Virus record (IMG/VR): IMGVR_UViG_2703718850_000013
Direction: 5' to 3' (one strand)
Length of the DNA stretch: 32,125 nt
From: a virus
Lineage: Duplodnaviria > Heunggongvirae > Uroviricota > Caudoviricetes
A model generated the notes under the pieces. The model had not been told where the DNA came from, ran no database searches, and saw nothing but the letters and a program-made list of their open reading frames with translations. This document shows, in pieces, positions 1 to 31,131 of this stretch; the stretch's first letter is position 1; each line of letters opens with the position of its first letter. Both the position numbers and the translations under genes were made by a program.

Positions 1-489
1 ATGGCAAATAAAGCACGAGATTACGACAATACACCATTCCTACGCATTGCGGGGAATTTTGGAGACTATGACAACGATCTTACACCAGAAGCAAAACAGA
101 TAATTGATGAAGCAATAGCATCAGTCCCAATGGGTAACGGTAAGCCATATAGTGGATTTAAGATCTATTACATCGTTTTCAATTTGATCACATTCAGTAC
201 TGAGAAAGTTTTAGCCAGGTTACATCTTTACCAGGACTATCATATAAAAGAAGTTCAGGAACGTGTAAGTGAATCTACCGCAGTAAAGGTAAGGCGTGTA
301 GCAACCGCAGTATCAAAAGCTCTTATAGCAGCACATAAACGCAAAGTGAAGCTATTCAAAGTGCAAAAGGACGGAATGCACTACATAGACAACAAACAGT
401 TCTATGAGACGTTAGCAAACGCACATGATAGCGGAGCATCAGCAGAGGAACTAATTATTATTCTACAGGGTTTCATTGATGGTAAATGA
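1..489 (+). CDS. hypothetical protein (162 aa), function unknown
   Basis: Uninterrupted ORF starting with ATG at window position 1; no recognisable motif. May be N-terminally truncated by the window edge. Confidence 0.45.
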   Translation: MANKARDYDNTPFLRIAGNFGDYDNDLTPEAKQIIDEAIASVPMGNGKPYSGFKIYYIVFNLITFSTEKVLARLHLYQDYHIKEVQERVSESTAVKVRRVATAVSKALIAAHKRKVKLFKVQKDGMHYIDNKQFYETLANAHDSGASAEELIIILQGFIDGK

Positions 490-502
490 AGCATTTTTTA
501 AC

Positions 503-631
503 TCCATTAATGGAATGAGTTAATCCACTAATAGAGATTTTATTCCATTAATGGAGTGTTATATTCCAACATATATGGCTTGAAACCCGCATTCTACCGT
601 TGAAATTGTGAATTTTACTTCATTAATGGAA
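503..631. promoter_or_regulatory. cluster of three 12-bp palindromic sites (TCCATTAATGGA at 503-514 and 544-555; variant TCATTAATGGA at 620-630), operator-like
   Basis: Exact repeated dyad-symmetric sequence read directly from the intergenic region after the first ORF; a TCCACTAAT half-site also occurs at about 524-532. Confidence 0.4.
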
Positions 632-1117
632 CACTATAATATAATAACACATATAAAATGGACTGAAGTCCGAAGATCAAAACCTCGCAAGCTCGCCTTT
701 GATCTTAGAATTTATAACCAGACTTTCGCCCTTTCAGGTCGAGCAAGTCCTTTACTTGCTTTCGCTCAAACAAACCCCATGTACTCACCAAAGTGATTAA
801 TAAAGTATTTGGGGTCGACCTACGGTCTAAAGTATTCGTGAGTACTACGCGGTCGTAAACTCCCTTGTTTGGGTCGTTCGCTGTTGAAGCTCACTAAAGT
901 GAACCACTACCCATACTAGCTAGGAACTTAATTAATTAAAGTGTGAAGCCGCACCGCCGGATGAATACGCAACACACAAGCCACCGAGAGGCATACTATG
1001 AGGAAATGAAAGTGAGTAGGGAGTCTGTGTATACCCATTAGACTATGAAAATAAACTGGCCTTTATTATAGAATCACACCTTTTTAATAAATACCAGTAC
1101 TACAGAGGATAATAAAA

Positions 1118-1429
1118 ATGAAATTACTAAAAACTGAAGAGTATGATCTGTTTCACCGATACACGTATGAGGATCACAGTACTATGACAGTATTCACGGA
1201 TCAGATTGTCTACTTTAATCACCCAACACGTGTAGTACTGCAACGAGAAGGACTACAATTCTATCATCAGAAGATTGATGGTACTCAAATAAATGAAACA
1301 CCTGATCTATCTAGGATGAGTGAATCAGAACTATTCCAAGCAAGCTTAGCACTGCAAACAGAGATCGACATTAATCGATTAATTATTATTCAAACACAAA
1401 TGAATAAAATAAGTGAGGACTACGAATGA
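1118..1429 (+). CDS. hypothetical small protein (103 aa)
   Basis: ORF with GAGGA Shine-Dalgarno about 9 nt upstream of ATG; ATGA overlap with the next ORF suggests translational coupling. Confidence 0.5.
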   Translation: MKLLKTEEYDLFHRYTYEDHSTMTVFTDQIVYFNHPTRVVLQREGLQFYHQKIDGTQINETPDLSRMSESELFQASLALQTEIDINRLIIIQTQMNKISEDYE

Positions 1430-1626
1430 AAGGCGTCAATTTTATACACCATAACTATGGAGAGTACATCTATGAGTTTGATTTTAAAAAAGGAATTGTA
1501 GAAGTACTAGAGCTAGGTTATCAAGTAATTGAAAAGCATAACATACAATTATTGCAAGAACTACCTAGTACTAATCTACACAGAGATTTACTAATAGAAA
1601 TTTATTCAAAACACCAGATGCAATGA
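1426..1626 (+). CDS. hypothetical small protein (66 aa)
   Basis: ORF overlapping the upstream stop by 4 nt (ATGA). Confidence 0.4.
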   Translation: MKGVNFIHHNYGEYIYEFDFKKGIVEVLELGYQVIEKHNIQLLQELPSTNLHRDLLIEIYSKHQMQ

Positions 1627-1776
1627 TAAATCCGGTGTTTTAGAACTGATGCTTATTTGGGAAATGTAAACGTTTCTTTAATATGCATCCTTAATGATTT
1701 TGAATCAAGTATGACTTTTTCTATTAAGTCATCAGTAATTCTACAAACTTAATAGGTTTGCAAGATAGGGTATTAA

Positions 1777-2520
1777 TCATTTTTTCTTTAGAGTTATGAA
1801 GTTATCAATTGGATAGTTATCATCATATATATCTTTTATGAAAGATGAAATCTTATTGTGAAGTGAAATTGCTTTTGACTGTATAACGAAAAGCTCACTA
1901 CTAGTTTGATCCCTCACACATTCATCGGCCTGTATAAGTGCAGGAACCTCAGAACTTGCAATATAGAAATCGATACTCAGTCCGTTATATTCATCAATAT
2001 TTAATTTAAGTTCAGCAATAATGTTTTTTGTGTATTCGCTTAAAGCATAATTAGTTCTATCAATAGATTTTAAGGAATTAATAACGGAGTAAGAAGTGAA
2101 GAATAAATCGGAAACAAGAGCATCTGTTTCCTTCATAAACTCATCATGTGAATCTTGGGGTATGGTCTCGTTTTTTAAATGATTGCGATATTTTTTGGAG
2201 AATGTCACTAATTGATGTTTTAAAATTAAGGTTGAAGTACGTACTTTATTAAGATCTTGATAAATTGCTTTCTCAATAACACCATATACTACATCATAAT
2301 GTTTTTGCGACAACCATTCAGGTGCTTTTAGGTATGCTTGGTAGGCTACCCATAGTGTACCTAATGTACCTACAGCACTACATAATGTTCCAATTAAAGT
2401 TACCCACTCCCATCCTTTCGAACCAGAAAATAATATTTTTACACCAACTAATATAGCAATTAGCAGCAGTAATAGTACGGTACTTAGTAGTATTAAATTA
2501 TATTTTTTAATATTAAGCAT
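1777..2520 (-). CDS. 2TM membrane protein, paralog of 3498..4199 (start re-chosen at internal ATG)
   Basis: N-terminus MLNIKKYN...VKILFSGSKGWEW parallels MNIKTIN...VKVLFAGSRGFEW of the 3498..4199 product; two hydrophobic helices then an about 180-aa helical soluble region. The track start at 2568 adds 16 residues absent from the paralog. Confidence 0.6.
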   Translation of the reverse strand: MLNIKKYNLILLSTVLLLLLIAILVGVKILFSGSKGWEWVTLIGTLCSAVGTLGTLWVAYQAYLKAPEWLSQKHYDVVYGVIEKAIYQDLNKVRTSTLILKHQLVTFSKKYRNHLKNETIPQDSHDEFMKETDALVSDLFFTSYSVINSLKSIDRTNYALSEYTKNIIAELKLNIDEYNGLSIDFYIASSEVPALIQADECVRDQTSSELFVIQSKAISLHNKISSFIKDIYDDNYPIDNFITLKKK

Positions 2521-2584
2521 GTTAATCTCATTTCTTAAATAAAAGACATAGATGTATATATGTAGCATTGATGGATATATATTC

Positions 2585-2602
2585 CACTAATCATGATTAG
2601 TG
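2585..2602. promoter_or_regulatory. perfect 18-bp palindrome CACTAATCATGATTAGTG between two minus-strand genes
   Basis: Read directly; lies in the 118-nt gap between the 2639..3460 stop and the 2520 start, so it could be an operator or an attenuator hairpin. Confidence 0.3.
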
Positions 2603-2638
2603 CCTCTCTGATTAATAATGTGATACATGTCCATGTAA

Positions 2639-3460
2639 TTAATAACGGAAACTCCATGTTTTTCTACTCAAAGCTAACTTCTTATGGACAAGTAGAAATA
2701 CAAATATCTCATGGAGATATGGAACCAGAGGTTCTCTTATCCCTTTACTGTGCTCAATGTTGTCAATATCATCTTTAAATTTAGAAATTAGATAATAATA
2801 AGGCTGCAACATATCAATGATTTCAAACACAATATAAGGTGAAACGTTTATTACTTTCCAGGAAAGTATATACTCATCAATTTGGCTTAAAATCGCACCA
2901 TCAAGACCTCTATTCCAGGTGTAACCGTATGCTTTGTATTTGTCGGCCCATAAATTTAATTCTCTTTCTAGTTTTTGTTTTCTAGAATCAGTAATGTGTT
3001 TACGGAAGCAAGAATTAATTATTTCGTTCCACTGTGCTAACGGATCTTTGACTTCTTTTTTGCCTTTTACAATTTTATCAAGATTATAATATCTTGAAGC
3101 ATCAGCGAATTCAGAAAGCATTTCTAATATGAGGTTTTGCTGCCAGTTTAATTCCCACTCCAAATTGGGTAAATGGCTAGCACCATAGCTTGAACAGTTT
3201 TTATGAAGCTCCGCAATATTATGGCTGAATTTTTTAAGTGTACGGAAGTCTGGCTTCTCAAGATTATTTTCGATCATATGATTGAGTATGAAGATAATCT
3301 TAAAAAACCTTTCTATGCCAATTGATAATTGAAAGAAGCTGCTATAGAAGCTACCTTTATCATGTGCTCTACATTTCCGCACAGCAGTAAGCCCACCACC
3401 TATTGAGGTACTGGACAAATAAGACTCTACCATGAATTGATTAAATGACTCCCCAAGCAT
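2639..3460 (-). CDS. hypothetical cytoplasmic protein (273 aa), possible Abi/HEPN-like (weak)
   Basis: ORF with AAGGA Shine-Dalgarno 6 nt upstream of ATG at 3460; no TM segment; an R-x4-H motif (RKCRAH) near the N-terminus is the only HEPN-like hint. Confidence 0.55.
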   Translation of the reverse strand: MLGESFNQFMVESYLSSTSIGGGLTAVRKCRAHDKGSFYSSFFQLSIGIERFFKIIFILNHMIENNLEKPDFRTLKKFSHNIAELHKNCSSYGASHLPNLEWELNWQQNLILEMLSEFADASRYYNLDKIVKGKKEVKDPLAQWNEIINSCFRKHITDSRKQKLERELNLWADKYKAYGYTWNRGLDGAILSQIDEYILSWKVINVSPYIVFEIIDMLQPYYYLISKFKDDIDNIEHSKGIREPLVPYLHEIFVFLLVHKKLALSRKTWSFRY

Positions 3461-3497
3461 AAGCTTTCCTTTTTATTTACATCAATTAACTATAAAT

Positions 3498-4199
3498 TTA
3501 GCTGAACGAATAATCAGTATCAATATTTGTTTCACATAGCTCGTACTGAAATATGGCAGCTAGCTCTCTTTTAACACTTTCAAGATTTTCTGTAGCTGCA
3601 ATTACGTCCTCATGCTTGGGGCAATTAATATGTTTGCATATGGTCAATAGATATATATATTGATTGTCTAAATATGACTGCCTTAACTCTAATATATTTT
3701 TAAATAAATTTTCAAGCCGTTCGCTTAACTTAATATCAAACCTGGCTAGCATTGACCTTGTCGTATATAGCTTAGCAAGTTCAGATAAATCACTTGTGGC
3801 CTTTTTATTAATTTCAGCAGCAACTTTAGATTTTATTTCATCTGTCAGTTCTTTATTATCCTGAACATATTTCCTGATGGAAGCACGAACTATACCATCA
3901 TTATATAAACGTGAATTTATTTCCCATAACTGCATCTCAAATTTCATAGCCAACTGATGTGAGGTAGAAAGGGATTTTAATTTTTTATTCTGAACGAACC
4001 AATTATTTGCTACAAAAGCAGCACAAAGAGCTGTAGACGCAATCACGATATTGCATAACGCACTTGTTAAATCAGCTGCGTTCCCCCATTCAAACCCCCT
4101 GCTACCAGCGAATAGAACCTTAACGAGTACTAAGACTGCTAAAAACAGAAGTACTGCAACAATGCCGACAAGAGTAGAGTTTATAGTTTTTATATTCAT
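3498..4199 (-). CDS. 2TM membrane protein, paralog of 1777..2520
   Basis: Two N-terminal hydrophobic helices then a helical soluble domain; its ATG overlaps the upstream gene's TGA (ATGA at 4196-4199), implying coupling. Confidence 0.6.
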   Translation of the reverse strand: MNIKTINSTLVGIVAVLLFLAVLVLVKVLFAGSRGFEWGNAADLTSALCNIVIASTALCAAFVANNWFVQNKKLKSLSTSHQLAMKFEMQLWEINSRLYNDGIVRASIRKYVQDNKELTDEIKSKVAAEINKKATSDLSELAKLYTTRSMLARFDIKLSERLENLFKNILELRQSYLDNQYIYLLTICKHINCPKHEDVIAATENLESVKRELAAIFQYELCETNIDTDYSFS

Positions 4200-4747
4200 A
4201 ATTTATCAGCTATGTTAACTTCACTATAGAGCAAGCCTTTCAATTTCATCAAAGCTTCCCAAATTTCAGTTGGCTTACCGCTACAATTTCTAAGTAATAT
4301 TTCATCGTTTTCTTGTTTACTCAATGATGAATCATAAAACCGTGCTCCCAATTCTTCAAAATCATTTATAGCATTAGTAACCGTCCAAATCGCATCGTGA
4401 ATTTGTGGTGTCATGTATAATGTATAATCGAGAAGGAAGTCACTTGCTTTACTTTTAATTAAATCCTGTTTATAAAGCATAATTTGATCTAAAAGATCAC
4501 CATCATCATAAAAATTAAAATTTTCTGGAAGATTCAAAGAATTAATAAACTGAATGAAAGGTTTAATAGTTTGCTTTTTTTCTTTTAATTCATCTTCGAG
4601 TATTTTGAATAAAAGTTGTTTTTTTAGTTTTTCGTTCTCATATTTTTTAGTGATTAATTGGCTTGCCAATGTTACACCCGCAGCTATTAATGCACCGCCT
4701 AAAGTACCACCGACTGCAATGAGTTGTGTAATGGTTTCAGCTTCCAT
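4196..4747 (-). CDS. single-pass membrane protein (first gene of the putative four-gene operon; start re-chosen)
   Basis: One N-terminal TM helix (ITQLIAVGGTLGGALIAAGVTLA) then an about 150-aa soluble domain. The track start at 4771 is TTG; the ATG at 4745-4747 (MEAETITQ) is used here. No strong SD, so the start is uncertain. Confidence 0.5.
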   Translation of the reverse strand: MEAETITQLIAVGGTLGGALIAAGVTLASQLITKKYENEKLKKQLLFKILEDELKEKKQTIKPFIQFINSLNLPENFNFYDDGDLLDQIMLYKQDLIKSKASDFLLDYTLYMTPQIHDAIWTVTNAINDFEELGARFYDSSLSKQENDEILLRNCSGKPTEIWEALMKLKGLLYSEVNIADKL

Positions 4748-4818
4748 TTTTTTAGAAATCCAATATATCAAAGTGAAAAATGAACTTTACCATAATAACC
4801 ATTCTGGCGTAAACTATT

Positions 4819-4880
4819 AGCGACACGCCCCACTCATAAAGGGTAGGTTTGTTTAGTTGGTGTGTGTGGGACGTGTCGCT
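4819..4880. repeat. inverted repeat: 9-bp arms AGCGACACG (4819-4827) and CGTGTCGCT (4872-4880) with a 44-nt spacer
   Basis: Read directly; relatively GC-rich arms in an AT-rich intergenic region next to the octamer array. Confidence 0.5.
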
Positions 4881-4896
4881 GAACAGTTGGACTATG

Positions 4897-5024
4897 TTCT
4901 TATGTTCTTATGTTCTTATGTTCTTATGTTCTTATGTTCTTATGTTCTTATGTTCTTATGTTCTTATGTTCTTATGTTCTTATGTTCTTATGTTCTTATG
5001 TTCTTATGTTCTTATGTTCTTATG
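4897..5024. repeat. perfect tandem array, 16 x TTCTTATG (CATAAGAA on the minus strand)
   Basis: 128 nt of uninterrupted 8-nt periodicity read directly; intergenic between the HNH gene stop (5053) and the start of the 4747 operon. Confidence 0.95.
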
Positions 5025-5052
5025 TCTATATTTCTCAACCTTTAGTTGAAAA

Positions 5053-5856
5053 TCATTTAGGATAACTAACACAAGTATGACCAGAAATTACCATCATAAA
5101 TTGATTATTCTTTAAACCTACAAAGGGAAATGAAGCATAATCAATATTAGCCGTTGTCATATTAAAATGAAGAGATTGATCATATTGAGTCATTTCAGTT
5201 GCATGAATAGGAAATGTTCCTTGCTCCTTCAGTGTAACCAAAAAAGATATTGGGAAAAAATGTAAGCAAGAACATATACTATGATGTCCATTATTGTAGA
5301 ATGTAACTGACTGAGCAGTAATTTGTTTTCTGAATGGATAAAACCAATAGTAAATATTATGAGTTGCCCCAATGTCTGGATTCCTGCCTAATACAAAATT
5401 TCTCAATGGAGTATAAAAAGGACTATCAACAATAGGCTTCATACAATCTTTTACTGAAGTTGCAGCCAGAAGGTGTCCAATCATTGCTCTTAGAAATTTA
5501 TCCGCATCAAATTTTAATGAAATATAATTTTTGTAAAAGAACTTACCACTAAAATAATCATTTAACTTTTCGATGAATTCAGTTGTAACACGGCCTATTT
5601 CTGCATCCATTGATCCTAAAATATTCGAGTTACAATTGTGACAAATGGTACGAAAAGTTGTCCCGCTTTTTGCTTTAATTGGTGGTACTCGAGTATTAGA
5701 GAAATACTCAGAAATCGTTTTTTGTAACATAGGTGAAGGTTTAGATGCACATTGCGGGGGAACATGGTCTTTTTTTAATTTGCCAAAATTACCACATATT
5801 ACACAATATCCATTAGCTATTTTTACATGGTCAATTCTTTCAGAGACAAATTTCAT
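5053..5856 (-). CDS. HNH-endonuclease-domain protein with about 200-aa C-terminal extension of unknown function
   Basis: N-terminal CVICG-x7-DHVPP ... TICHNCN matches the HNH zinc-finger/His-Me pattern (CxxCG...DH..P...CxxCN). Confidence 0.6.
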   Translation of the reverse strand: MKFVSERIDHVKIANGYCVICGNFGKLKKDHVPPQCASKPSPMLQKTISEYFSNTRVPPIKAKSGTTFRTICHNCNSNILGSMDAEIGRVTTEFIEKLNDYFSGKFFYKNYISLKFDADKFLRAMIGHLLAATSVKDCMKPIVDSPFYTPLRNFVLGRNPDIGATHNIYYWFYPFRKQITAQSVTFYNNGHHSICSCLHFFPISFLVTLKEQGTFPIHATEMTQYDQSLHFNMTTANIDYASFPFVGLKNNQFMMVISGHTCVSYPK

Positions 5857-6179
5857 TCTGCAATCTCAAAAGTTAACATCACCAAAATATAGAGCATTCA
5901 AACACAATGTTCAATATGATTTTACTCTAACCAGTGTGCTATTTTTTATGCAAACTTATACATGGACGAATACTCAAACTGCGATAATAAACTGAAAATA
6001 TCGATATAAGAATTGATTTTATGAGTAATCATCATTATAGCCTATACCATGTAGCATTAACACTTTACCACCAAATAGAACATACATATACTATTGATTA
6101 TCGACCTAGGGTAAGTTTATCAATTATGGTACGATAGAATCTAAATAATCTATAGTAGCAAGAGGCTTAGGGGGAGATA

Positions 6180-6854
6180 ATGGAGTGGAAGAAAGAGCTT
6201 AGAGCAAAGTTTGAAAGAGACGAACTTAGAAGATTAATTTCTAATGTAAACTGGATTATATTCAAACCTAAAATAAAAAAGCAATTAGAAATACTATCAA
6301 CCCAATTATCAGGAGAGCATATAAGATTTAATATAATTGATATGCAAGATGAACCAGATGGTTATGGTTTTGATTGCCTGACATTTCAGATCGCTGATCG
6401 TATGACTGGAAATATGCGGCAGGAAAAAACTACCGAAAGCATAAAGTTTAATCATCATTGGCAAAAAGGAGCCGCACTTTCAATTACATATAGTGCGACG
6501 GGGGCTGTGCATATAATTCTTTTTCCGTCTACTTCAGATGATTCATTAGCAACACATGATTCCTTGATTGTCCATCATTCATATAACGTTAAACACATAA
6601 CACCAAAAAAAATAGAGAAAGCAGTAAAGAATTTACTTCATTATCACCGTGTTACAGGTGTTTTACACAAGGCCGCATTAAAAGATTTAATTTTAATCCG
6701 CTTACTGAAAATTAAGATGTTTTTTATTCAGTATAACGACAAAGAGAACAAGTTTAGAAGAGTTACAGCATTATATATACCTACATTAAGTCTTATAGTT
6801 TCGTTGGCTGCCGCAGTAGCATCTATTCTGGCATTAGTATCTGTTAAATCATGA
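6180..6854 (+). CDS. tail-anchored membrane protein (224 aa), unknown function
   Basis: Strong SD (GGGGGAG) before the ATG; single C-terminal hydrophobic helix (LSLIVSLAAAVASILALVSV); the only plus-strand gene in the island, convergent with the nucleotidyltransferase gene. Confidence 0.55.
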   Translation: MEWKKELRAKFERDELRRLISNVNWIIFKPKIKKQLEILSTQLSGEHIRFNIIDMQDEPDGYGFDCLTFQIADRMTGNMRQEKTTESIKFNHHWQKGAALSITYSATGAVHIILFPSTSDDSLATHDSLIVHHSYNVKHITPKKIEKAVKNLLHYHRVTGVLHKAALKDLILIRLLKIKMFFIQYNDKENKFRRVTALYIPTLSLIVSLAAAVASILALVSVKS

Positions 6855-6860
6855 TGATTA

Positions 6861-6890
6861 TAAGCCAGCAACTAACTGGCTTATAAATTA
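6861..6890 (+). terminator. putative intrinsic terminator after 6180..6854
   Basis: Stem TAAGCCAG / CTGGCTTA with 7-nt loop, followed by a T/A-rich tail, 7 nt after the stop codon. Confidence 0.45.
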
Positions 6891-7099
6891 GAAATTGGAA
6901 ACTATCTCTTCTCACAAAACTGCTATCTTTAGCGATAAGGGAATGTAATCTCCTGATACTGATGGTAGAGGAGCGGGTCATACAATCTTAGCAATCTCAT
7001 TTAGCTGTACGACGGTGGAATGTTTCAACTGTACTCAATTCTTACAAGTAAAAATATCGAGAATGATTTTTTGGATTCAAGCAAAGACAATGAGCTGTA

Positions 7100-7127
7100 C
7101 CCCCTTATAATTAGTAATATAAGGGGG
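7100..7127. terminator. hairpin CCCCCTTATA-loop-TATAAGGGGG between convergent genes
   Basis: 10-bp perfect stem with 8-nt loop, 5 nt downstream of the 7133..7909 stop; possibly bidirectional. Confidence 0.45.
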
Positions 7128-7132
7128 CAAGA

Positions 7133-7909
7133 TTATTTTATGGGTAAAATTTTCTTTATTTCATTTTCGGCGGCAAAATGATTGTTTAACTGCTCATAAT
7201 ATTTTGACATCATAACTGAATTTTTTAGACGCTGAATCTTATCTTTTTTCCATTGTGCGAGATAATAGGAACCTGAAAGTTGTTCTACAGCAGAGTAAAA
7301 ATATTCTTTAAGGGTAGAGCACCAAAAATAGTTAAAGCTAACAATATCTTTTTCAAGTTGATACGACTCAAAGACATAACCTGCATTGGCATTCCAATAT
7401 TTCATTATGCGAATAAGAGGCTTAATTAAATTGTTATTATTTTTATTGCAATTAGTTAAATCAGTATTGAACGCATTGGGATCGGTATTCATCCAACGGT
7501 TCAAAAAATCCTGGTTGGAAGGGATTTGATAACCAAATAAAATATTATGAGATGCAGGGACAAGCTCGAAAGTAATATGATTAAGGTTCAATTGAATAGT
7601 AGGGTGGCTTTGCTTTATTTCAGATGTACGATAGTAATAATTTACAAAACCCCTTAGCTTGTTTAGGTAGGTCTGAGGCTGATATATTACATTTTTGAAT
7701 ACAACCATATAATCAACATCAGAAGAAGGATCATAGCTACGAGGAAGCATTGTATTACGTGAATATGAGCCAAATACAAAATGACTAACAAGTTCACCAG
7801 CAAAATAACCATTCAGTCTGTTTTTTATGGTTGCAATTGAATTCGTTATTGTAATATCTCTTTGATAAGCATTGCTTTTAATAGACTCAAGATAGGTACT
7901 GACTGTCAT
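7133..7909 (-). CDS. pol-beta-type nucleotidyltransferase, SMODS/CD-NTase-like
   Basis: FGSYSRNT...SDVDY (hG[GS]-x9-13-DxD) plus a later acidic residue (FELVP); AAGGAA SD 6 nt upstream; start lies 2 nt after the upstream gene's stop. Confidence 0.6.
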   Translation of the reverse strand: MTVSTYLESIKSNAYQRDITITNSIATIKNRLNGYFAGELVSHFVFGSYSRNTMLPRSYDPSSDVDYMVVFKNVIYQPQTYLNKLRGFVNYYYRTSEIKQSHPTIQLNLNHITFELVPASHNILFGYQIPSNQDFLNRWMNTDPNAFNTDLTNCNKNNNNLIKPLIRIMKYWNANAGYVFESYQLEKDIVSFNYFWCSTLKEYFYSAVEQLSGSYYLAQWKKDKIQRLKNSVMMSKYYEQLNNHFAAENEIKKILPIK

Positions 7910-7911
7910 GT

Positions 7912-8415
7912 TTATTCCTTGTCAATATTATACTTAGTAAAGCCTTGGTTAACATCTCTTTGAGTTTTCTCATAAGCCCACCGAGGAATATTTGGCGAAC
8001 TTGAATTAAGTTGATTGCGTCGATCAGAGTAACTCGTAAGTTTTTCAATCAAAGTTTTATCAGTAAAATCAAAATTAGAAGTCAATATTTCCCTAAATAT
8101 TCTAACTTCATTCTTTAATTTATTATATTCATTTGCTGCTGATTTATGAAGTGCAGCACGCTTACTTGGGTTAAGAGACGTATTTAATGCAGTTAGAATT
8201 GTAGCAGTTATGGAAATAGCTACAACAGCATTGGCTGTACTCTTGATTGCGGCAATACCACTCAAAGCGGTTAAGATTGCTAATGGTACACCGAACCACA
8301 GATTCAGCTTATCCCATCTATCAGAAACATTATAATGAGATTTAGAAGAGTACAGAGCGTCCTCTTCTATACGATGACACTCAGAAATGACTGTTTGGAT
8401 GAGCTTCTGATTCAT
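7912..8415 (-). CDS. 2TM membrane protein, SLATT-like effector candidate (start re-chosen)
   Basis: About 40-aa N-terminal region, two TM helices (LWFGVPLAILTALSGIAAI; AVVAISITATILTAL), helical C-terminal region; tightly coupled to the nucleotidyltransferase gene. ATG at 8413-8415 has a GGAG SD; the track start is a GTG two codons upstream. Confidence 0.55.
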   Translation of the reverse strand: MNQKLIQTVISECHRIEEDALYSSKSHYNVSDRWDKLNLWFGVPLAILTALSGIAAIKSTANAVVAISITATILTALNTSLNPSKRAALHKSAANEYNKLKNEVRIFREILTSNFDFTDKTLIEKLTSYSDRRNQLNSSSPNIPRWAYEKTQRDVNQGFTKYNIDKE

Positions 8416-8579
8416 AAACACTCCAACAAATCCGATTCCCTAACAGTATAACATGGTAGGGTTAATAAATACTATAGGTACTTCCCTCTGAATAGACACA
8501 ATCGGGAAGTTTCGCCGCGAACTATTTTTTTTGCATATTAAATATTTTAAATAACACAAACAAAACCTGGATAAACAAA

Positions 8580-9101
8580 TTGAACGATAGATATACAACA
8601 AACGAAATTGCAGAACGTATGGGAGTTAATGACAGTACTGTAAGCCGTGAATGGGCAAAACGTGGAATGCCACACCCAAAGAAAGCAAGTAAAAAAGAAA
8701 TAGATCAATGGATACTAATTAATATTATCCAACCATTGCGAAATACTGATGTAAAAGAACAGATTGAAAAAGAGAAATTACGCAAGATATCACTTGAAGC
8801 AGATTTAGTTGAGATTGAATTAAATATCAGTACTGAAAAGGTATTGAGTACTGATTATGTAACTCAAACACTAACTGGTTATTTTGCAGCACTACGCGGA
8901 GTACTAAGAAGTATTCCGGCATCTATCTATGTAGAACTATTTGAAAGTGAAGATGCGGATACATTGCGGATAAAACTAGAAGAAAGGATTGATGAGAAAC
9001 TAAGGGAATTAGGATCATATGAGTACGAAGAACAGCCAGAAGAAGATGATGAAGATTCTGAACCAGAGTCTGAAATCAATATTACCCCCACCGAAGATTA
9101 A
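8580..9101 (+). CDS. terminase small subunit, lambda Nu1-like
   Basis: N-terminal HTH TNEIAERMGVNDSTVSREWAKRGMP resembles Nu1 (…IRTIQNWQEQGMP) and EKEKLRK resembles Nu1 ENEKLRR; acidic C-terminus. Track start is TTG with no clear SD, so the true start is uncertain. Confidence 0.6.
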   Translation: MNDRYTTNEIAERMGVNDSTVSREWAKRGMPHPKKASKKEIDQWILINIIQPLRNTDVKEQIEKEKLRKISLEADLVEIELNISTEKVLSTDYVTQTLTGYFAALRGVLRSIPASIYVELFESEDADTLRIKLEERIDEKLRELGSYEYEEQPEEDDEDSEPESEINITPTED

Positions 9102-10938
9102 ACCATCTGAATGGTGTGAACAATATACTGTATTTCCAGATGGACCACTGGCACAACAAAAAACTAAATTATTTTCATTTCAAGTAGAACCCCTAAACGC
9201 CACAGTAGATCCATCAGTACAGAAGATCTGTTTAATGAGTAGTGCACAATTACTCAAGACAACAATACTACAAAATGCAATGCTTTACAGGATGGCAAAT
9301 AAACCCTCCCATATGATATTTGCGGGTAGTAGTGGTAGTACTGTGAAAAAGTTCCGTACTGGTAAATGGATGGATACTATTAATGCGTGTCCAAACCTTC
9401 AAGCATTAATCACTGACAAATCAGATAAGAATGCAGTAAACGATCTACACACTCAACAGAACGTTGACGGTACTAAGACATACTTTGTTAACCTCAATTC
9501 TAGCCAGTCCCTACGCTCGCTTACAGTTCCTGCAATCTTCATTGATGAATTATCAGGTGTAGATCCAGAACAAGATGAGGGCAACCCCCTATCACTCATA
9601 GAACAGCGTGCAACTCAGTTTGGTAAGAACTCCCTGATCGTGATGGCCTCCACACCATTAGTACAGGACGATATGATCTGCCAGCAATGGGAACTCTCAG
9701 ACCAGAGACATTTTCATGTCGTGTGTCCACATTGTGATCATGACCATATTTTAGAATGGGAGAATATAAAGTTTGAATGGGTGAAGTTCAACGAACGACG
9801 TAATGCACCAGAACCCACTACAGCACGCCTACACTGTCCAGGATGTGATGAAGTAATCACTGAAGGGCAACGTGCACGGATGGTTGCAAAAGGTTACTGG
9901 AAAGCACACAGACTGCATGTGATGGGTTTCAGGGGATACCATGTTAATAGACTATATTCACCGATTACTACTATTGAGAAGATTGTTGAAGACTTTAAGA
10001 ACTCATGGATAAACTTTGAAGAACAATCTTTCTATAATAACGTACTCGGTTTACCGTGGGTAGATAAGAATAATATTAAAGAAGATCTTACAGTACTGGA
10101 AAACTTACGCGACTTTGATTTAGATGTAAAACATATTCCAGATAATGCACTTGGTATTGTACTGGCATGTGACCAACAGATAGACCGCTTAGAATGTAGT
10201 ACTATTGCATTTGATGAAAAGAATATATGGGTTCTGGACCACCGTATGTTTTATGGTGTCGATTGTACTAAGTATGAAGATAAGGCATATACTGAACTAC
10301 TTAATTATAGTAAGAGTATATTTAAAACCACTTCAGGTAGAAAAGTACCAGTACTGAGATCCTTTATTGATAGCTCAAACGGATCTGCAACCAGTTCCAT
10401 ATATCGCTTTTGTTCTTCCAGTGGGGGACGATGGCATGCAATTAAGGGTGCAAACACACAGACTGGTCCCATCACGAAGGATTCCACAACGGCAGGACAT
10501 CAACTGGTTAATATTAATACTCAAGTACTGAAGCACCAGGTTAAGAAGTTATTACGACAGGCATGTGAAGGGGGAGAGTATAGTACTAATATACACTTCA
10601 GTCATTCCCTTGTCGATGATTACTTCCTCCAACTTACAGCAGAAAAACTAGTACGAAAAGGTTCAGTGATGGTATGGGAGAATCCAAATGGAGAGCGTAA
10701 CGAATGTCTCGATACGCTCGTCTACTCATTAGCAGCGATTGATCACAAGATACAGGCACTTGGTGCACAACCGTATAGGAAGTTGCGAGAGTATAGAGCT
10801 AAACAAAAAGAACTAAATACTAAAGTAGAAGAATCCATAAAAACTAAAGCAGAACAACAACCAGTACAGAAAGAGAAGCAGAAATCAAAACCTAAGAAAA
10901 AAGGACTTTCAGCACTTAATAATCGTAACTGGTTTTAA
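9019..10938 (+). CDS. terminase large subunit, GpA-like
   Basis: 639 aa, immediately after TerS, with cysteine/histidine clusters (CPHCDHDH; CPGCDE); AGGA SD before ATG 9019; overlaps TerS by 83 nt (alternative ATGs at 9046/9049). Confidence 0.8.
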   Translation: MSTKNSQKKMMKILNQSLKSILPPPKIKPSEWCEQYTVFPDGPLAQQKTKLFSFQVEPLNATVDPSVQKICLMSSAQLLKTTILQNAMLYRMANKPSHMIFAGSSGSTVKKFRTGKWMDTINACPNLQALITDKSDKNAVNDLHTQQNVDGTKTYFVNLNSSQSLRSLTVPAIFIDELSGVDPEQDEGNPLSLIEQRATQFGKNSLIVMASTPLVQDDMICQQWELSDQRHFHVVCPHCDHDHILEWENIKFEWVKFNERRNAPEPTTARLHCPGCDEVITEGQRARMVAKGYWKAHRLHVMGFRGYHVNRLYSPITTIEKIVEDFKNSWINFEEQSFYNNVLGLPWVDKNNIKEDLTVLENLRDFDLDVKHIPDNALGIVLACDQQIDRLECSTIAFDEKNIWVLDHRMFYGVDCTKYEDKAYTELLNYSKSIFKTTSGRKVPVLRSFIDSSNGSATSSIYRFCSSSGGRWHAIKGANTQTGPITKDSTTAGHQLVNINTQVLKHQVKKLLRQACEGGEYSTNIHFSHSLVDDYFLQLTAEKLVRKGSVMVWENPNGERNECLDTLVYSLAAIDHKIQALGAQPYRKLREYRAKQKELNTKVEESIKTKAEQQPVQKEKQKSKPKKKGLSALNNRNWF

Positions 10939-10950
10939 TAAGGAATTAAT

Positions 10951-11427
10951 ATGAATCCACGTAAGACGGACTTAACTAGCCCGATCTTTATTGGTGAAAC
11001 TATAGTACTAGACTTCCCATCAACAGCAACGATTAAAATCATTGATGCAAAAGGTAATGAGCAAGAATACTTTCCAAATTTACCCATTGATACATCTCAA
11101 TGGGTAGCTGGTGTCAGTACTGCAATTATTAGCGATGGTAGTATGTCTGTACAACTTTTCACTGTTAAAGATCCACTTGAAGCAGCAAATAAAATAAATC
11201 AGTTACAGGAATTGATCGATGAAATTGATATGGTTATTGAATCCAAGATTCTTGGGGGTGGTACTACACAACTTACCATTAATAATAAAACACTAGTAAC
11301 AGAAAGTGCTGAAGTACTTTACCGTATGCGACAAGTATATGCAAAGAAACTTGCAGATGAAAAGGCACGTGTACGAAAAGTTAAGACGGGCAACCCCATC
11401 AAATCAATTACACGTTTTACAAGATAA
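10951..11427 (+). CDS. hypothetical head protein (158 aa) between terminase and portal
   Basis: ORF in the position lambda gives to W; no motif recognised. Confidence 0.45.
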   Translation: MNPRKTDLTSPIFIGETIVLDFPSTATIKIIDAKGNEQEYFPNLPIDTSQWVAGVSTAIISDGSMSVQLFTVKDPLEAANKINQLQELIDEIDMVIESKILGGGTTQLTINNKTLVTESAEVLYRMRQVYAKKLADEKARVRKVKTGNPIKSITRFTR

Positions 11428-11436
11428 GAGGGGAAT

Positions 11437-12429
11437 ATGTTTAATTTTAATTTTAGAAAGGCAAAGGAACAGCCAAAAGAAGAACCAAAACTATATATTG
11501 GTAAGGCAAAAATACGTACTGAACCAGTACTTGGTAATTTAGGTATTGAAACCAAACGTTCCATTTCTTCCATCGGTAACGGTAACGCAGCCGCACAACT
11601 TGGTACATTTGGTGCAGTTGGTAAGAGTGGCTCGATCAATGCCGTAATTAACCGTGTATTGAACACGGCAGTACTACAAAGTCGCCAGCTTAGTATGAGT
11701 AACCCAATTCATAAGAAGTATATTGCACAGAATGCCAGTAGTGTATGTGGTGCAAATGGTATTACGTATCGTCCATGTGTTCACGTTGCTGAAGATGACA
11801 ATGTTAATAATGATATTAATAAACGTCTCGCCGATGCGTTCTACTCATGGTGTGAAGACCCCGCACGTTTTTCCCTAAATGGAAAACTTGAAATGTCCAA
11901 ATTCCAGTCACTGGTAGAGAAGACACGTTCAATTGATGGTAGTTGTTTTATTCGTATCCATCCTGGTATGAAGATTGAAGTACTAGACAGTACTGTAATT
12001 GATACGAAAGGTAATCAATGGCTAAGTAATGGTAACTATCGTTCAAATGGTATTGAGTTTGAAAAAGGCACTGGTAAACCCGTTGCTTACTTTCTAACAC
12101 AATATGACCCCGTATCGTACTCAGTTAGTACTGAAGCAGAACGTGTACCCGCAGAAGAGATCCTTCACTTATTCAGTACTGACTATCCAGAACAGCAACG
12201 CGGCATTCCCGATATATTTTGCGGTACTGGACTACTGGCAGACCTGGATAAATTCATGAGGGCGTCAATCAAGACGCGACAATTAGCAGCGGAAAGCATG
12301 GGTTTTATCACGAATGCGTCACGTGATGCATCATTTGAAGATATTGATGATGATGACGATTCTGATGTAGATGAATACCAGGTTGCACGTATGGAGGGTG
12401 GAGTACTGTTAGAACTTCGTGAGGGTTAA
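11437..12429 (+). CDS. portal protein, N-terminal segment (ends at an in-frame TAA)
   Basis: Position after TerL; weak resemblance to lambda gpB from memory; followed in the same frame by 12433..12948. Confidence 0.6.
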   Translation: MFNFNFRKAKEQPKEEPKLYIGKAKIRTEPVLGNLGIETKRSISSIGNGNAAAQLGTFGAVGKSGSINAVINRVLNTAVLQSRQLSMSNPIHKKYIAQNASSVCGANGITYRPCVHVAEDDNVNNDINKRLADAFYSWCEDPARFSLNGKLEMSKFQSLVEKTRSIDGSCFIRIHPGMKIEVLDSTVIDTKGNQWLSNGNYRSNGIEFEKGTGKPVAYFLTQYDPVSYSVSTEAERVPAEEILHLFSTDYPEQQRGIPDIFCGTGLLADLDKFMRASIKTRQLAAESMGFITNASRDASFEDIDDDDDSDVDEYQVARMEGGVLLELREG

Positions 12430-28985: not shown

Positions 28986-29010
28986 GGGGCATTAATGCCC
29001 CTTTTTATTT
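28986..29010. terminator. bidirectional intrinsic terminator GGGGCATTAATGCCCC + T-tract
   Basis: Perfect 16-bp palindrome flanked by an A-run upstream and a T-run downstream, between convergent genes; it overlaps the endolysin stop codon. Confidence 0.7.
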
Positions 29011-29451
29011 GTTAATTAAATCTTTAATCATCTGGTTAAGTCTATTCGGTGTCTGACGATACCATAAACTATCCTTTGCCTGTTTAATTGCTTCTGTGTA
29101 ATTATTGTTTAGTAATGCAATGATCATCTTTTTAAACTTCTTAGTACCACTTAAGCCTAACTGAAAAATCATGATAACCATGAAGTCTTCCCAGTCCTGT
29201 GGTAATTTCAAATTTAAGGTAGATAAATTACGTTTGGCAATGCCAATATCTTTATCCAGTAGTTTATCTGCTTCATCCTCGTTAATGCCGTTAGGGAACG
29301 TCTCAGAGGCTTTTAGAAGATGTCCATATCCAATCGTATCTTTGTTCTCACTACATTTATACACCCAGAATTTACCATTGCGATAATAACCCATATGGGC
29401 CTGGTATTCTTTCGTACCTTCATATATTTTTAATTTTTCTATTAAACACAT
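29005..29451 (-). CDS. endolysin, GH24 T4-lysozyme-like (start corrected)
   Basis: DTIGYGHLL and SLWYRQTPNRLNQMI align with T4 lysozyme TIGIGHLL and SRWYNQTPNRAKRVI; the ATG at 29449-29451 has a GAGG SD, whereas the track start at 29505 adds 18 residues with no counterpart. Confidence 0.85.
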   Translation of the reverse strand: MCLIEKLKIYEGTKEYQAHMGYYRNGKFWVYKCSENKDTIGYGHLLKASETFPNGINEDEADKLLDKDIGIAKRNLSTLNLKLPQDWEDFMVIMIFQLGLSGTKKFKKMIIALLNNNYTEAIKQAKDSLWYRQTPNRLNQMIKDLINK

Positions 29452-29487
29452 AAATACCTCATAAACTATTATTTGTGGGGTATTTAT

Positions 29488-29916
29488 ATGAAATGGACAA
29501 TGCATGATCCTGAGACATGGGATTATGAAGATATAAATGACGGGAGGTATGCAGCTTTTGTATATATGATCACTTTTGACGATGGTTCATATTATTTTGG
29601 TGTAAAGTCAATCTTCAAAAGTATTCGGGATGTAAAGAAGCTGAAGCCAACTACAAAGGAATCCAACTGGGAGAATTATTATTCTTCCTCGAAGAAGGTG
29701 CAGGCAATGGTTGATTCAGGCCTGAACTATGAAAAACAAATACTATGGTGTTTCAGAACGACGAATGAAGCTGAGCAAGTAGAAGCGGCATTGATTCTAT
29801 TCTTAGGACAGCAATCAAATAATTTAAATCTTGCCGTGATGTGCAAAGTACGGCTTGGTAAAAATCGTTCTGAAACATTCAAAGTACTGCAACAATTATT
29901 AGAGAGGTTATCATGA
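29488..29916 (+). CDS. hypothetical protein, possible stand-alone GIY-YIG nuclease domain
   Basis: FVY-x10-YFG then Arg, Glu and Asn at roughly GIY-YIG spacing; weak. Start set at ATG 29488 (track start 29473 is TTG). Confidence 0.35.
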   Translation: MKWTMHDPETWDYEDINDGRYAAFVYMITFDDGSYYFGVKSIFKSIRDVKKLKPTTKESNWENYYSSSKKVQAMVDSGLNYEKQILWCFRTTNEAEQVEAALILFLGQQSNNLNLAVMCKVRLGKNRSETFKVLQQLLERLS

Positions 29917-30506
29917 AATGGAAAAATGGTCATTCACCAGATGATATGAAGAAATTTGTTAATAAAAATTCCCCAAAGATCGGTAAAGACTTCAAAAAAG
30001 AACTAAGTAACCGTATGCGTAATGTTACCCAACAGATACAGCAGAAAATTAACCAGGAAGTAGAGGGTGGTGTAATTCCATATACGGGTAGGGCGATGTA
30101 CTTTAATTTTAAACGGCTTAATGAATTTGAGAGTGTAAACCAGATTATAGTACTGGGAAATCAGGCGAGATACTTAAAGCATATTATTGACCCTGATTAT
30201 GTAGGGAATAAGGAATATAAAGCGATCCCATACCAAAACGCCAAGAAGACAAAACAGGGCAATATAACTCAACTTAAATCAAAGCGTAAGAACGATAAAT
30301 ATAAAAAAGTGAAGAGTAAGACGTCTGGAAAGACATATCTAATCGACACTACCAAGAAGACGAAAACGAGTAAGGAACGTGTTATTGGTTATTATGGAAG
30401 TGTTGGAAGAAAACCAATATTTGATTTTTATGACACAACCGAAAAAATGGTATTACGACAACTTCAAACTATGCGTGGTACATTCGAATATAAATGGAGA
30501 AAATAA
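29913..30506 (+). CDS. hypothetical lysine-rich protein (197 aa)
   Basis: ORF with ATGA overlap to the upstream gene; highly basic. Confidence 0.45.
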   Translation: MKWKNGHSPDDMKKFVNKNSPKIGKDFKKELSNRMRNVTQQIQQKINQEVEGGVIPYTGRAMYFNFKRLNEFESVNQIIVLGNQARYLKHIIDPDYVGNKEYKAIPYQNAKKTKQGNITQLKSKRKNDKYKKVKSKTSGKTYLIDTTKKTKTSKERVIGYYGSVGRKPIFDFYDTTEKMVLRQLQTMRGTFEYKWRK

Positions 30507-30826
30507 TGAATATACTTGATCAATATCCCTGTTATGACCATACCGTACTGGATGAATTCCTATTTCAAAACGTCAAACCTGTAAGTGTTACTTTGCCATA
30601 TGACAAAGTGTTTTCGGGTAGCAAGTTAATTAAAAAGAAGGTAGATAAGAGTAAAGGGGATTTGATCGTATTCAGTTTCAATCTAAACAATATTCCGAAT
30701 GTTAATGATGGTGATGTACTCGATACAGTATGTCTTGGTGATAATAAGACAGTAGCAGTACTGTCATGCTTTAATCAAGTCTACAAAGGTCATCGCGTTT
30801 GGTCTGTCGTATGCCAGTTACAATAA
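30494..30826 (+). CDS. hypothetical protein (110 aa)
   Basis: ORF overlapping the upstream gene end; no motif. Confidence 0.4.
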   Translation: MEKIMNILDQYPCYDHTVLDEFLFQNVKPVSVTLPYDKVFSGSKLIKKKVDKSKGDLIVFSFNLNNIPNVNDGDVLDTVCLGDNKTVAVLSCFNQVYKGHRVWSVVCQLQ

Positions 30827-30837
30827 GGAAATGAAAT

Positions 30838-31131
30838 ATGATAAATGCAATATCCGTATTAATTAGTACAATAATGAGTGTTTTTACAAAGACAAAATTA
30901 ATTGAAAAAGAGGAACATAGAACTAACACTGAAGGACAGATTGAGACAAATAAAATTGAAATTGAGCAAAACACCTTTCACTGGAGAAACTTCCTTGGTT
31001 TTGTACTTTCCCTAATCATTTTATATAATTGGATAATTGTACCTGTTCTTGATGCGTTTGGTATTGTATTAATACAAGTTCCACTAGGTGAGCTACTACA
31101 GATACTTTTAATCATGGTGGGTGGTGGTTGA
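30838..31131 (+). CDS. small membrane protein, holin-like candidate (97 aa)
   Basis: AAGGAAA SD; two C-terminal hydrophobic helices (FLGFVLSLIILYNWIIVPVL; LLQILLIMVGG). Confidence 0.4.
   Translation: MINAISVLISTIMSVFTKTKLIEKEEHRTNTEGQIETNKIEIEQNTFHWRNFLGFVLSLIILYNWIIVPVLDAFGIVLIQVPLGELLQILLIMVGGG

What the first reader, a model, noticed from the sequence alone, without database searches (positions are those of the whole stretch)
1777..4747. Four-gene minus-strand operon with two paralogous 2TM proteins: candidate undescribed membrane-effector system
The genes 4196..4747 (single-pass membrane protein), 3498..4199 (2TM), 2639..3460 (cytoplasmic) and 1777..2520 (2TM) are co-oriented, and the first two are coupled by an ATGA overlap. 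The two 2TM proteins share their N-termini (MNIKTIN...VKVLFAGSRGFEW versus MLNIKKYN...VKILFSGSKGWEW), while the two partner proteins are unrelated. This looks like two successive partner + 2TM-effector modules, the same architecture as the neighbouring nucleotidyltransferase + 2TM pair. I recognise no characterised family for any of the four proteins. Such an operon inside a phage could be a superinfection-exclusion or abortive-infection module.
Basis: partly seen in the sequence, partly recalled or inferred. Interest (0 to 1): 0.8.

Follow-up and report, generated by a model that had tools for sequence, protein, structure and literature searches.

The report
Prophage hotspot array of unknown genes
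Four real but unnamed genes sit in the anti-phage "hotspot" of an E. coli prophage; they look like separately acquired accessory genes (two or three related membrane proteins plus one stand-alone HEPN-fold protein) driven by one conserved promoter, not one four-part machine.

Summary
Genes A (4196-4747), B (3498-4199), C (2639-3460) and D (1777-2520) are real and co-oriented, A/B overlap by ATGA, and B, C and D evolve under purifying selection. B and D are true paralogues.

None of the four matches Pfam, NCBIfam, PADLOC or PHROGs. They lie in a low-GC accessory island of an E. coli prophage, next to a type I CBASS (SLATT + SMODS).

The proposed "A+B and C+D" two-module reading is not supported:
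- A is confined to this prophage lineage. It is absent from one relative and replaced by a third 2TM paralogue in another.
- B-C (usually followed by D) is the recurring block.
- C belongs to a large unannotated family (about 1,100 clusters) that usually stands alone in defence islands. Its model has a HEPN-like fold but no conserved Rx4-6H motif.
- The 2TM family is the resident gene of this hotspot. It occurs in one to three copies, beside varied neighbours (C, 8xMP, DUF2971, a GIY-YIG-like protein).
- It sits downstream of a conserved hairpin (invariant loop, unrelated stems) and an invariant TGGTAAAGT extended -10.

My best reading is an array of independently acting prophage defence or exclusion genes sharing a promoter. 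No function has been shown. Interest is moderate.

The parts
4196..4747 (-). Gene A: 183 aa, one N-terminal TM segment (9-27) and a cytoplasmic helical tail. It occupies the slot, 107 nt after the start of the hairpin-loop motif, where related phages carry the first 2TM-family gene.
   Evidence: ORF and PGAP CDS. TM segment and charge bias. No family hit. Found only in this prophage lineage. Only a weak N-terminal resemblance to TM2 of the 2TM family: BLASTP E=6e-4 against P0028, hhalign probability 0.7%. Offset from the motif.
3498..4199 (-). Gene B: 233 aa, an N-terminal 2TM hairpin with a short GSRGFEWG periplasmic loop, then a cytoplasmic helical domain. It is a paralogue of D.
   Evidence: Only 6 homologous clusters were found. 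dN/dS is 0.16-0.20.
2639..3460 (-). Gene C: 273 aa, soluble, all-helical, with a HEPN-like fold. It belongs to a large unannotated family with invariant E12, E50, R51, K54, H80 and R123.
1777..2520 (-). Gene D: 247 aa, an N-terminal 2TM hairpin followed by a cytoplasmic four-helix bundle. It is a paralogue of B.
4819..4880 (-). Conserved hairpin upstream of A: an 18-nt inverted repeat (about 15 bp in the RNA fold) closing a 26-nt loop that contains AACAAACCTACCC.
   Evidence: Inverted repeat I3. Folding z-score is -6.5 against shuffles. All 15 instances from different phages fold as a hairpin around the near-invariant loop motif, with stems that differ widely in sequence. The element is linked to 2TM-family genes.
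4784..4813 (-). Putative sigma-70 promoter: a -35-like TTTACG (4808-4813), an 18-nt spacer, and the extended -10 TGGTAAAGT (4784-4792).
   Evidence: TGGTAAAGT is invariant in all 10 loci compared, and AGTKTAC lies about 17-18 nt upstream in most of them. The transcription start has not been mapped, so this is an inference.
4893..5020 (.). 8-bp simple-sequence repeat (TATGTTCT) of 16 full copies, directly upstream of the hairpin.
   Evidence: TRF reports 16.6 copies at 100% match over 4893-5025. Copy number is 3, 4, 4, 5, 5, 5 and 7 in other copies of the same prophage. No tandem run was found in the IS-flanked remnant copies.
2585..2602 (.). Perfect 18-bp palindrome CACTAATCATGATTAGTG in the 118-nt C-D spacer.
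   Evidence: I8. It carries one mismatch in L040 and L041. Its function is unknown.
1608..1641 (.). Terminator-like hairpin flanked by an A-run and a T-run, between D and the convergent gene 1426-1626. It is the likely 3' end of the array.
   Evidence: (I6) and the sequence. This is an inference.

Best explanation
The region is an array of accessory genes in the defence hotspot of a temperate E. coli phage. The phage has a serine-recombinase integrase and lambda-like terminase and portal genes. The array is not one four-component system.

The resident element of the hotspot is a small, fast-diversifying family of inner-membrane proteins. Each has an N-terminal 2TM hairpin followed by a cytoplasmic four-helix bundle. 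B and D belong to it, and A possibly does as a derived one-TM form. In all 10 loci compared, this family sits downstream of a conserved extended -10 promoter (TGGTAAAGT), which in turn lies just 3' of a conserved hairpin.

C is an autonomous gene of a large, unannotated, HEPN-fold family that has lodged between two of the paralogues and probably rides on their promoter.

Inferred function: all of them protect the lysogen against other phages. C would act as a stand-alone abortive-infection protein, possibly an RNase-type one built around the invariant E/ER..K/H/R residues. The 2TM proteins would act at the inner membrane, either by exclusion or by a membrane-damaging abortive response.

Shown here: gene reality, paralogy, fold, distribution, gene contexts, and the conserved promoter and hairpin. 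Inferred: any defence activity, RNase chemistry and co-transcription.
For: Context:
- The accessory island has low GC and lies in a prophage next to yggS.
- A CBASS pair is adjacent.
- The same site in related prophages holds UzuA, PDC-S31/DUF2971, a GTPase and 8xMP.

C is autonomous:
- About 1,120 clusters, nearly all around 270 aa.
- It stands alone in Yersinia, an environmental contig and E. hormaechei.
- Its neighbours elsewhere are SngC, a dGTPase, an MkoC-like protein, an NsnB-like protein and PDC-S15.

Histories are decoupled:
- C is 99.3% identical between L040 and L041, while their B proteins are 66.5% identical.
- Synonymous divergence falls along the array: B 0.5-1.07, C 0.23-0.24, D 0.04-0.10.

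The 2TM family is the resident gene:
- It occurs in 1-3 copies per locus.
- It has many different neighbours.
- It is linked to the hairpin, and in all 10 loci compared to the invariant TGGTAAAGT.

A is dispensable. Single genes are broken in remnant copies while the others stay intact.
Against: - No experiment shows defence.
- Tight spacing is what a co-translated operon looks like: the ATGA overlap and B-C gaps of 19-45 nt across lineages.
- B-C stayed adjacent at 52%/77% protein identity in Enterobacter.
- The 2TM gene is very often followed closely by a second gene, and the 8xMP pairing recurs in two gene orders. Both fit a real 2TM-plus-effector partnership.
Confidence: 0.45

Rival explanations
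1. B-C, with or without D, is one integrated system. A 2TM inner-membrane protein senses infection or anchors and gates the HEPN-fold protein C. More generally, the 2TM family would be a modular membrane partner for interchangeable effectors: C, 8xMP, DUF2971 and a GIY-YIG-like protein.
For: - B-C adjacency is retained between E. coli and Enterobacter prophages, with gaps of 19-45 nt.
- B-C-D is retained in L040 and L041.
- 2TM genes are closely followed, or overlapped, by a variable second gene in 7 of 9 lineages.
- The 8xMP + 2TM pairing occurs in two gene orders.
- An unrelated 2TM protein lies upstream of C in Mixta.
Against: - C and DUF2971/PDC-S31 mostly occur without any 2TM-family gene.
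- 2TM genes also occur alone (L125 and L231).
- B diverged or was exchanged while C stayed 99.3% identical.
- All the syntenic loci are related prophages, so the adjacency may simply be inherited.
Confidence: 0.25
2. The 2TM proteins serve the phage's own biology or lysogenic conversion (membrane remodelling, lysis timing, exclusion of the phage's own kin only) and are not general anti-phage defence. C is an unrelated passenger.
For: - The 2TM family with its conserved promoter and hairpin is a near-constant feature of this phage group. That is more typical of a backbone gene than of cargo.
- There are no PADLOC hits.
- The fold is a generic helical bundle.
Against: - Copy number varies from 1 to 3, divergence is fast, and the genes sit among known defence genes.
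- The phage has its own lysozyme and a candidate holin elsewhere.
- The block is kept in degraded, IS-flanked prophage remnants that have lost the adjacent phage genes on one side.
Confidence: 0.15
3. One reading: two successive modules, A + B and C + D, each a cytoplasmic or partner protein plus a 2TM effector, analogous to CBASS cyclase + SLATT.
For: - A and B overlap by ATGA.
- C and D are the two most widely distributed genes of the array in E. coli assemblies.
- The C-D spacer keeps its 118-nt length in relatives.
Against: - A+B is not conserved outside this lineage.
- Enterobacter has B-C without D.
- D-family genes occur without C, and C without D.
- There is no SLATT or NTase homology.
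Confidence: 0.05
4. The region is a toxin-antitoxin or addiction cassette that stabilises the prophage, with C as a HEPN-like toxin and a neighbouring gene as its antitoxin.
For: HEPN toxins of HEPN/MNT pairs are among the best structural matches (7ae2, 5yep). The block also persists in prophage remnants.
Against: There is no MNT or other recognisable antitoxin. C is usually a solitary gene with no conserved partner. C is broken in some copies while its neighbours stay intact, and the reverse also occurs.
Confidence: 0.07

Closest known systems
HEPN-domain abortive-infection proteins and toxins (AbiV, AbiD/F, HepT of HEPN/MNT, Csm6-type RNases)
   Different: No Pfam or PADLOC HEPN model matches above noise. 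The Rx4-6H motif is not conserved. The invariant residues are E12, E50-R51-x2-K54, H80 and R123-Y-x-N. At 273 aa, C is about twice the size of a minimal HEPN domain.
CBASS type I cyclase + SLATT 2TM effector (the neighbouring pair at 7133-8421)
   Same: Both are small co-oriented gene sets that include a 2TM protein, and they sit in the same prophage island.
   Different: B and D carry the TM hairpin at the extreme N-terminus, followed by a 170-aa four-helix bundle. They show no SLATT homology (hhalign probability 0.3%; NCBIfam SLATT_1 E=0.09, below cutoff). There is no cyclase partner.
Prophage and satellite defence hotspots (P2/P4 hotspots, Rousset et al. 2022; cited from my own knowledge, not checked here), including the Rst_2TM_1TM_TIR system
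   Same: A fixed site in a family of temperate phages carries interchangeable defence cargo. This array likewise combines a 1TM protein, a 2TM protein and a soluble protein.
   Different: There is no TIR domain. The phage backbone differs. Here one protein family (the 2TM family) and its promoter and hairpin stay resident while the cargo around them changes.
Prophage superinfection-exclusion or abortive membrane proteins (lambda RexB and SieB, P22 SieA/SieB, T4 Imm; from my own knowledge)
   Same: These are prophage-encoded inner-membrane proteins. Here a sigma-70-type promoter is suited to expression in the lysogen.
   Different: There is no sequence match to SieB or any other Pfam family. 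The large domain is cytoplasmic, not periplasmic. No phenotype is known.

Membership tests
HEPN superfamily (protein C) | Four-helix up-down HEPN fold | tested here: met
HEPN superfamily (protein C) | Conserved Rx4-6H catalytic motif | tested here: not met
   R28-x4-H33 of the window protein is not conserved even among 7 close homologues. Across 57 diverse members the invariant residues are E12, E50, R51, K54, H80 and R123, with no R-x4-6-H spacing.
HEPN superfamily (protein C) | Sequence-profile match to a described HEPN family | tested here: not met
   Pfam gives nothing for C. Of 57 family members, one hits HEPN_AbiV at E=0.079 and one hits PADLOC CARF_HEPN_mCpol at E=5.6e-4. The PDB profile search finds no HEPN protein.
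HEPN superfamily (protein C) | Metal-independent RNase activity | not testable with these tools
   This needs biochemistry.
CBASS-like NTase + SLATT 2TM effector pair | The partner is a CD-NTase/SMODS nucleotidyltransferase | tested here: not met
   A and C have no SMODS, NTase or cyclase hit in Pfam, PADLOC or NCBIfam. The neighbouring gene 7133-7909 does (E=3.5e-113).
CBASS-like NTase + SLATT 2TM effector pair | The 2TM protein carries a SLATT domain | tested here: not met
   The B/D family profile against the window's SLATT protein gives hhalign probability 0.3%. The NCBIfam SLATT_1 hit scores E=0.092, 12.7 bits against a cutoff of 41.
Rst_2TM_1TM_TIR (Rousset 2022; definition from my own knowledge) | A 2TM protein plus a 1TM protein encoded together | tested here: met
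   A has 1 TM segment and B has 2, and their ORFs overlap.
Rst_2TM_1TM_TIR (Rousset 2022; definition from my own knowledge) | A TIR-domain effector | tested here: not met
   No TIR hit in any of the four proteins.
Known defence systems in PADLOC-DB v2 | A significant match to any model | tested here: not met
   A, B and C give no hits, and D gives only PDC-S05 at E=0.043. The 57 members of the C family give no consistent hit.
Holin / lysis cassette | A small TM protein adjacent to an endolysin | tested here: not met
   B and D are 233-247 aa with large cytoplasmic domains. The phage lysozyme is at 29005-29505, with a weak holin hit at 30838-31131.
Superinfection-exclusion membrane proteins (SieB and similar) | Sequence membership (for example Pfam SieB) | tested here: not met
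   No such Pfam hit at E<=1.
Superinfection-exclusion membrane proteins (SieB and similar) | An exclusion or abortive phenotype in lysogens | not testable with these tools
   This needs plaquing assays.

The most novel reading that the evidence does not exclude
The 2TM family is the constant membrane component of a modular prophage immunity locus. It would pair with interchangeable effectors: the HEPN-fold C family, SLATT-like 8xMP, DUF2971 and a GIY-YIG-like protein. Its expression would be set by a previously undescribed cis element, a hairpin with an invariant loop abutting an extended -10 promoter. In some lineages that element is flanked or invaded by hypervariable simple-sequence repeats, which would give phase-variable defence. 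In this reading the C family would also be a new, widespread defence gene family of more than 1,000 clusters.
Probability: 0.2. Interest if true: 0.75.

Novelty: new variant of a known kind. Interest (0 to 1): 0.5.

Why it matters
If C is a defence gene, it names a widespread family (about 1,100 clusters at 50% identity across Proteobacteria) that no domain database or defence-finder currently annotates, and it supplies six invariant residues to mutate.

The 2TM family, with its conserved hairpin and promoter, marks a recognisable hotspot in a group of enterobacterial temperate phages. That marker could be used to harvest further cargo genes.

The hairpin has an invariant 13-nt loop and stems that differ widely between phages. 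The neighbouring repeat tract varies in copy number. Together they form a compact, testable candidate for a regulatory switch of prophage-encoded immunity.

None of this changes current understanding unless a phenotype is shown. Uncharacterised candidates in defence islands are common.

Tried and rejected
- **R28-x4-H33 as a HEPN motif in C.** Rejected, because it is not conserved.
- **SLATT homology of B and D.** Rejected.
- **A as a clear member of the 2TM family.** Only weak hints (BLASTP E=6e-4 against P0028; hhalign probability 0.7%), so left open.
- **The 246-aa 2TM protein upstream of C in Mixta as a B/D relative.** No similarity.
- **Megablast and tblastn against the phage collection.** Nothing for the island, the backbone or A.
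- **Generic promoter and terminator scan.** No more sites than in shuffled sequence. The conserved promoter was found only by comparing loci.
- **Rfam.** No match in 1-9000.
- **The search for related loci with the 57-sequence alignment.** The 7-sequence alignment worked.
- **afdb50 fold library.** Unavailable.
- **MAFFT + RNAalifold on 12 hairpins.** Failed, because the stems are too dissimilar to align. The stem comparison therefore rests on per-sequence folds.
- **14-mer scans of IMG/VR.** Mostly chance matches, which had to be filtered by flanking complementarity.
- **Literature searches** for the protein accessions, '8xMP', and HEPN + 2TM prophage systems found nothing relevant.
Full report
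**1. Observation**

The four minus-strand ORFs are present as described: A 4196-4747, B 3498-4199, C 2639-3460 and D 1777-2520. NCBI's PGAP calls the same four CDS in E. coli N61.
- The A stop and B start overlap as ATGA.
- The B-C gap is 37 nt with an AGGA upstream of the C start. The C-D gap is 118 nt.
- Hydropathy gives one TM segment in A, two in B, two in D and none in C. Positive charges follow the last TM segment in each, which puts all the soluble domains in the cytoplasm.
- B and D share 42% identity over 64 N-terminal residues (E=6e-7). Profiles of their families align over 157 columns (hhalign probability 98.7%, E=2.9e-16).
- Against two diverged relatives, dN/dS is 0.16-0.20 (B), 0.10 (C) and 0.12-0.13 (D), so these are functional genes.
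- None of the four matches Pfam, PADLOC, PHROGs or NCBIfam. All public copies are named 'hypothetical protein'.

**2. Where it sits**

The window is an E. coli prophage integrated next to yggS. It has a serine-recombinase integrase, a lambda-type GpA terminase, a portal and a capsid gene. Near-identical DNA occurs in 90 of 5,426 complete E. coli genomes.

Bases 1000-8500 form a low-GC island (31-33% against 38-43%) just upstream of the small terminase gene. The island holds, in order:
- a type I CBASS: a SLATT 2TM effector at 7912-8421 and a SMODS cyclase at 7133-7909;
- an unknown 224-aa protein;
- an HNH-like protein (phrog_21495);
- A-B-C-D.

The same block also sits in IS-flanked prophage remnants in very many E. 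coli assemblies. D's exact sequence is listed in 4,988 index blocks. Individual copies there have breaks in A, B or C, and one has D alone.

**3. Is it one four-gene unit? No.**
- A was found only in this prophage lineage.
- L040 has B-C-D directly after the terminase gene, without A.
- L041 has a third 2TM paralogue in A's place (hhalign probability 98%, E=2.8e-13) followed by B-C-D.
- Enterobacter prophages keep B (52% identity) and C (77%) 19 nt apart, without A or D, next to Uzume.
- C stands alone in Yersinia, in an environmental contig and in most of 11 species-representative genomes.
- D-family genes occur without C in several contexts: Citrobacter (two tandem 2TM paralogues after a GTPase), C. 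braakii (overlapping an 8xMP gene) and E. asburiae (followed by DUF2971/PDC-S31).
- C is 99.3% identical between L040 and L041 while their B proteins are only 66.5% identical. Synonymous divergence falls from B to D. The array is therefore a recombinational mosaic.

**4. Protein C**

A profile of 7 homologues finds 1,120 cluster representatives at E<=1e-3 and 709 at E<=1e-10, nearly all about 270 aa. Across 57 diverse members, E12, E50, R51, K54, H80 and R123 are invariant. No Pfam, PADLOC or PDB sequence match appears.

Neighbours of C homologues in other genomes include SngC, a dGTPase, an MkoC-like protein, an NsnB-like ATPase and PDC-S15. The family therefore lives in defence islands.

**5. 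The 2TM family**

**6. A conserved cis element**

Directly upstream of the first gene of these arrays lies a hairpin. In the window its arms are at 4819-4836 and 4863-4880, and its folding z-score is -6.5. The loop always carries AACAAACCTACCC or a near variant, while the stems differ widely in sequence (15 instances).

I scanned IMG/VR with two 14-mers. After filtering for flanking complementarity, 8 hairpins remained, one of which is the window's own prophage. Of the six other contigs with enough downstream DNA, five carry a 2TM-family gene downstream, and three of those five start 107-128 nt after the motif.

In 10 loci the sequence TGGTAAAGT (an extended -10) is invariant. In most of them an AGTKTAC -35-like element lies 17-18 nt upstream and overlaps the base of the hairpin. 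A's ATG lies 107 nt after the start of the motif, which is the slot normally taken by a 2TM gene.

In the window the hairpin abuts an 8-bp repeat of 16 full copies (TRF 16.6). Other copies of the prophage have 3-7, and no tandem run was found in the remnants. In E. asburiae the loop itself holds a variable CACACC repeat.

**7. Interpretation**

Best reading (0.45): a hotspot array of independently acting accessory genes sharing the conserved promoter. C would be a stand-alone HEPN-fold abortive-infection candidate. The 2TM proteins would be resident membrane-level exclusion or abortive candidates.

Main rival (0.25): a genuine partnership between the 2TM protein and a variable effector. It is favoured by the tight spacing, by B-C persistence, and by the 8xMP + 2TM pairing that recurs in two gene orders.

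A holin role is unlikely, because the phage has its own lysozyme and a candidate holin elsewhere.

**8. Verdict**

These are real, uncharacterised genes in a defence context, and the protein families are undescribed. The kind of thing, prophage hotspot cargo with a HEPN-like protein and TM proteins, is familiar. No function has been shown. Interest is moderate (0.5).

Noticed in passing
window 4819-4880 (also L040 ~5930-5970, L014 ~5875-5962, L019 ~5235-5290, L020 ~5760-5850, L034 ~4870-4950, L073, L118, L125, L129, L154, L157, L231): A hairpin with an invariant 13-nt loop motif (AACAAACCTACCC) and stems that differ widely in sequence between phages. It is not in Rfam. It lies immediately 5' of an invariant TGGTAAAGT extended -10 and is almost always followed by a 2TM-family gene.
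   Followed up: partly
window 4893-5020: An 8-bp simple-sequence repeat (TATGTTCT) with 16 full copies here (TRF 16.6 over 4893-5025). Other copies of the same prophage have 3-7, and no tandem run was found in IS-flanked remnants. Many assemblies break inside gene A next to it. It may tune or phase-vary expression.
   Followed up: partly
L020-L022 (E. asburiae), hairpin at about 5760-5850 of L020: The loop and left arm of the homologous hairpin contain a CACACC hexanucleotide repeat whose copy number differs between the three contigs.
   Followed up: no
window 7133-8421 (minus strand): A complete type I CBASS pair. The SLATT 2TM effector is at 7912-8421 (NCBIfam SLATT_4 E=2e-41) and the SMODS cyclase at 7133-7909 (PADLOC cyclase E=3.5e-113).
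   Followed up: yes
window 5053-5856 (minus strand): A 267-aa protein with CxxC...DHVPP...CxxCN motifs and only weak HNH hits. It matches phrog_21495 (E=1e-94), a family of unknown function. It is co-oriented with, and upstream of, the repeat and the array.
   Followed up: partly
window 6180-6854 (plus strand): A 224-aa protein with a single C-terminal TM segment (204-222) and no family match, lying between the CBASS pair and the HNH-like gene.
   Followed up: no
window 2585-2602: A perfect 18-bp palindrome, CACTAATCATGATTAGTG, in the C-D spacer. The spacer keeps its 118-nt length in L040 and L041, where the palindrome has one mismatch.
   Followed up: partly
L019 5334-6017 and L073 (2TM gene at 10762-11472, then an 8xMP homologue at 11518-12216): An 8xMP ('octameric membrane protein', PF24838) gene is paired with a 2TM-family gene in two divergent phages, in opposite gene orders (BLASTP E=4e-19 between the two 8xMP proteins). 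8xMP weakly resembles a CBASS 2TM effector model (E=0.004).
   Followed up: partly
L239-L248 (E. coli chromosomes): The block CBASS - orf224 - HNH-like - A-B-C-D persists in degraded, IS-flanked prophage remnants at other chromosomal sites, for example next to pabB/sdaA in L247. Individual copies have breaks in A, B or C, and L240 retains D alone.
   Followed up: partly
window 498-568: About three tandem copies of a 20-21-bp unit (TCCATTAATGGAGTGTTTTAT-like) lie just after the gene at 1-489. They may be iterons or an operator array.
   Followed up: no
window 29005-31131: A phage lysozyme (29005-29505, minus strand) lies next to a SegE-like GIY-YIG homing endonuclease (29473-29916) and a weak 3TM holin match (30838-31131).
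   Followed up: no
L024 (Citrobacter plasmid) 4133-4948 and L020 6650-7420: A protein whose N-terminus I judged by eye to resemble DUF2971 lies directly upstream of a C homologue on a plasmid; it had no PADLOC hit. A Pfam-confirmed DUF2971 / PDC-S31 protein lies directly downstream of a D homologue in E. asburiae. The same cargo types recur around both families.
   Followed up: no
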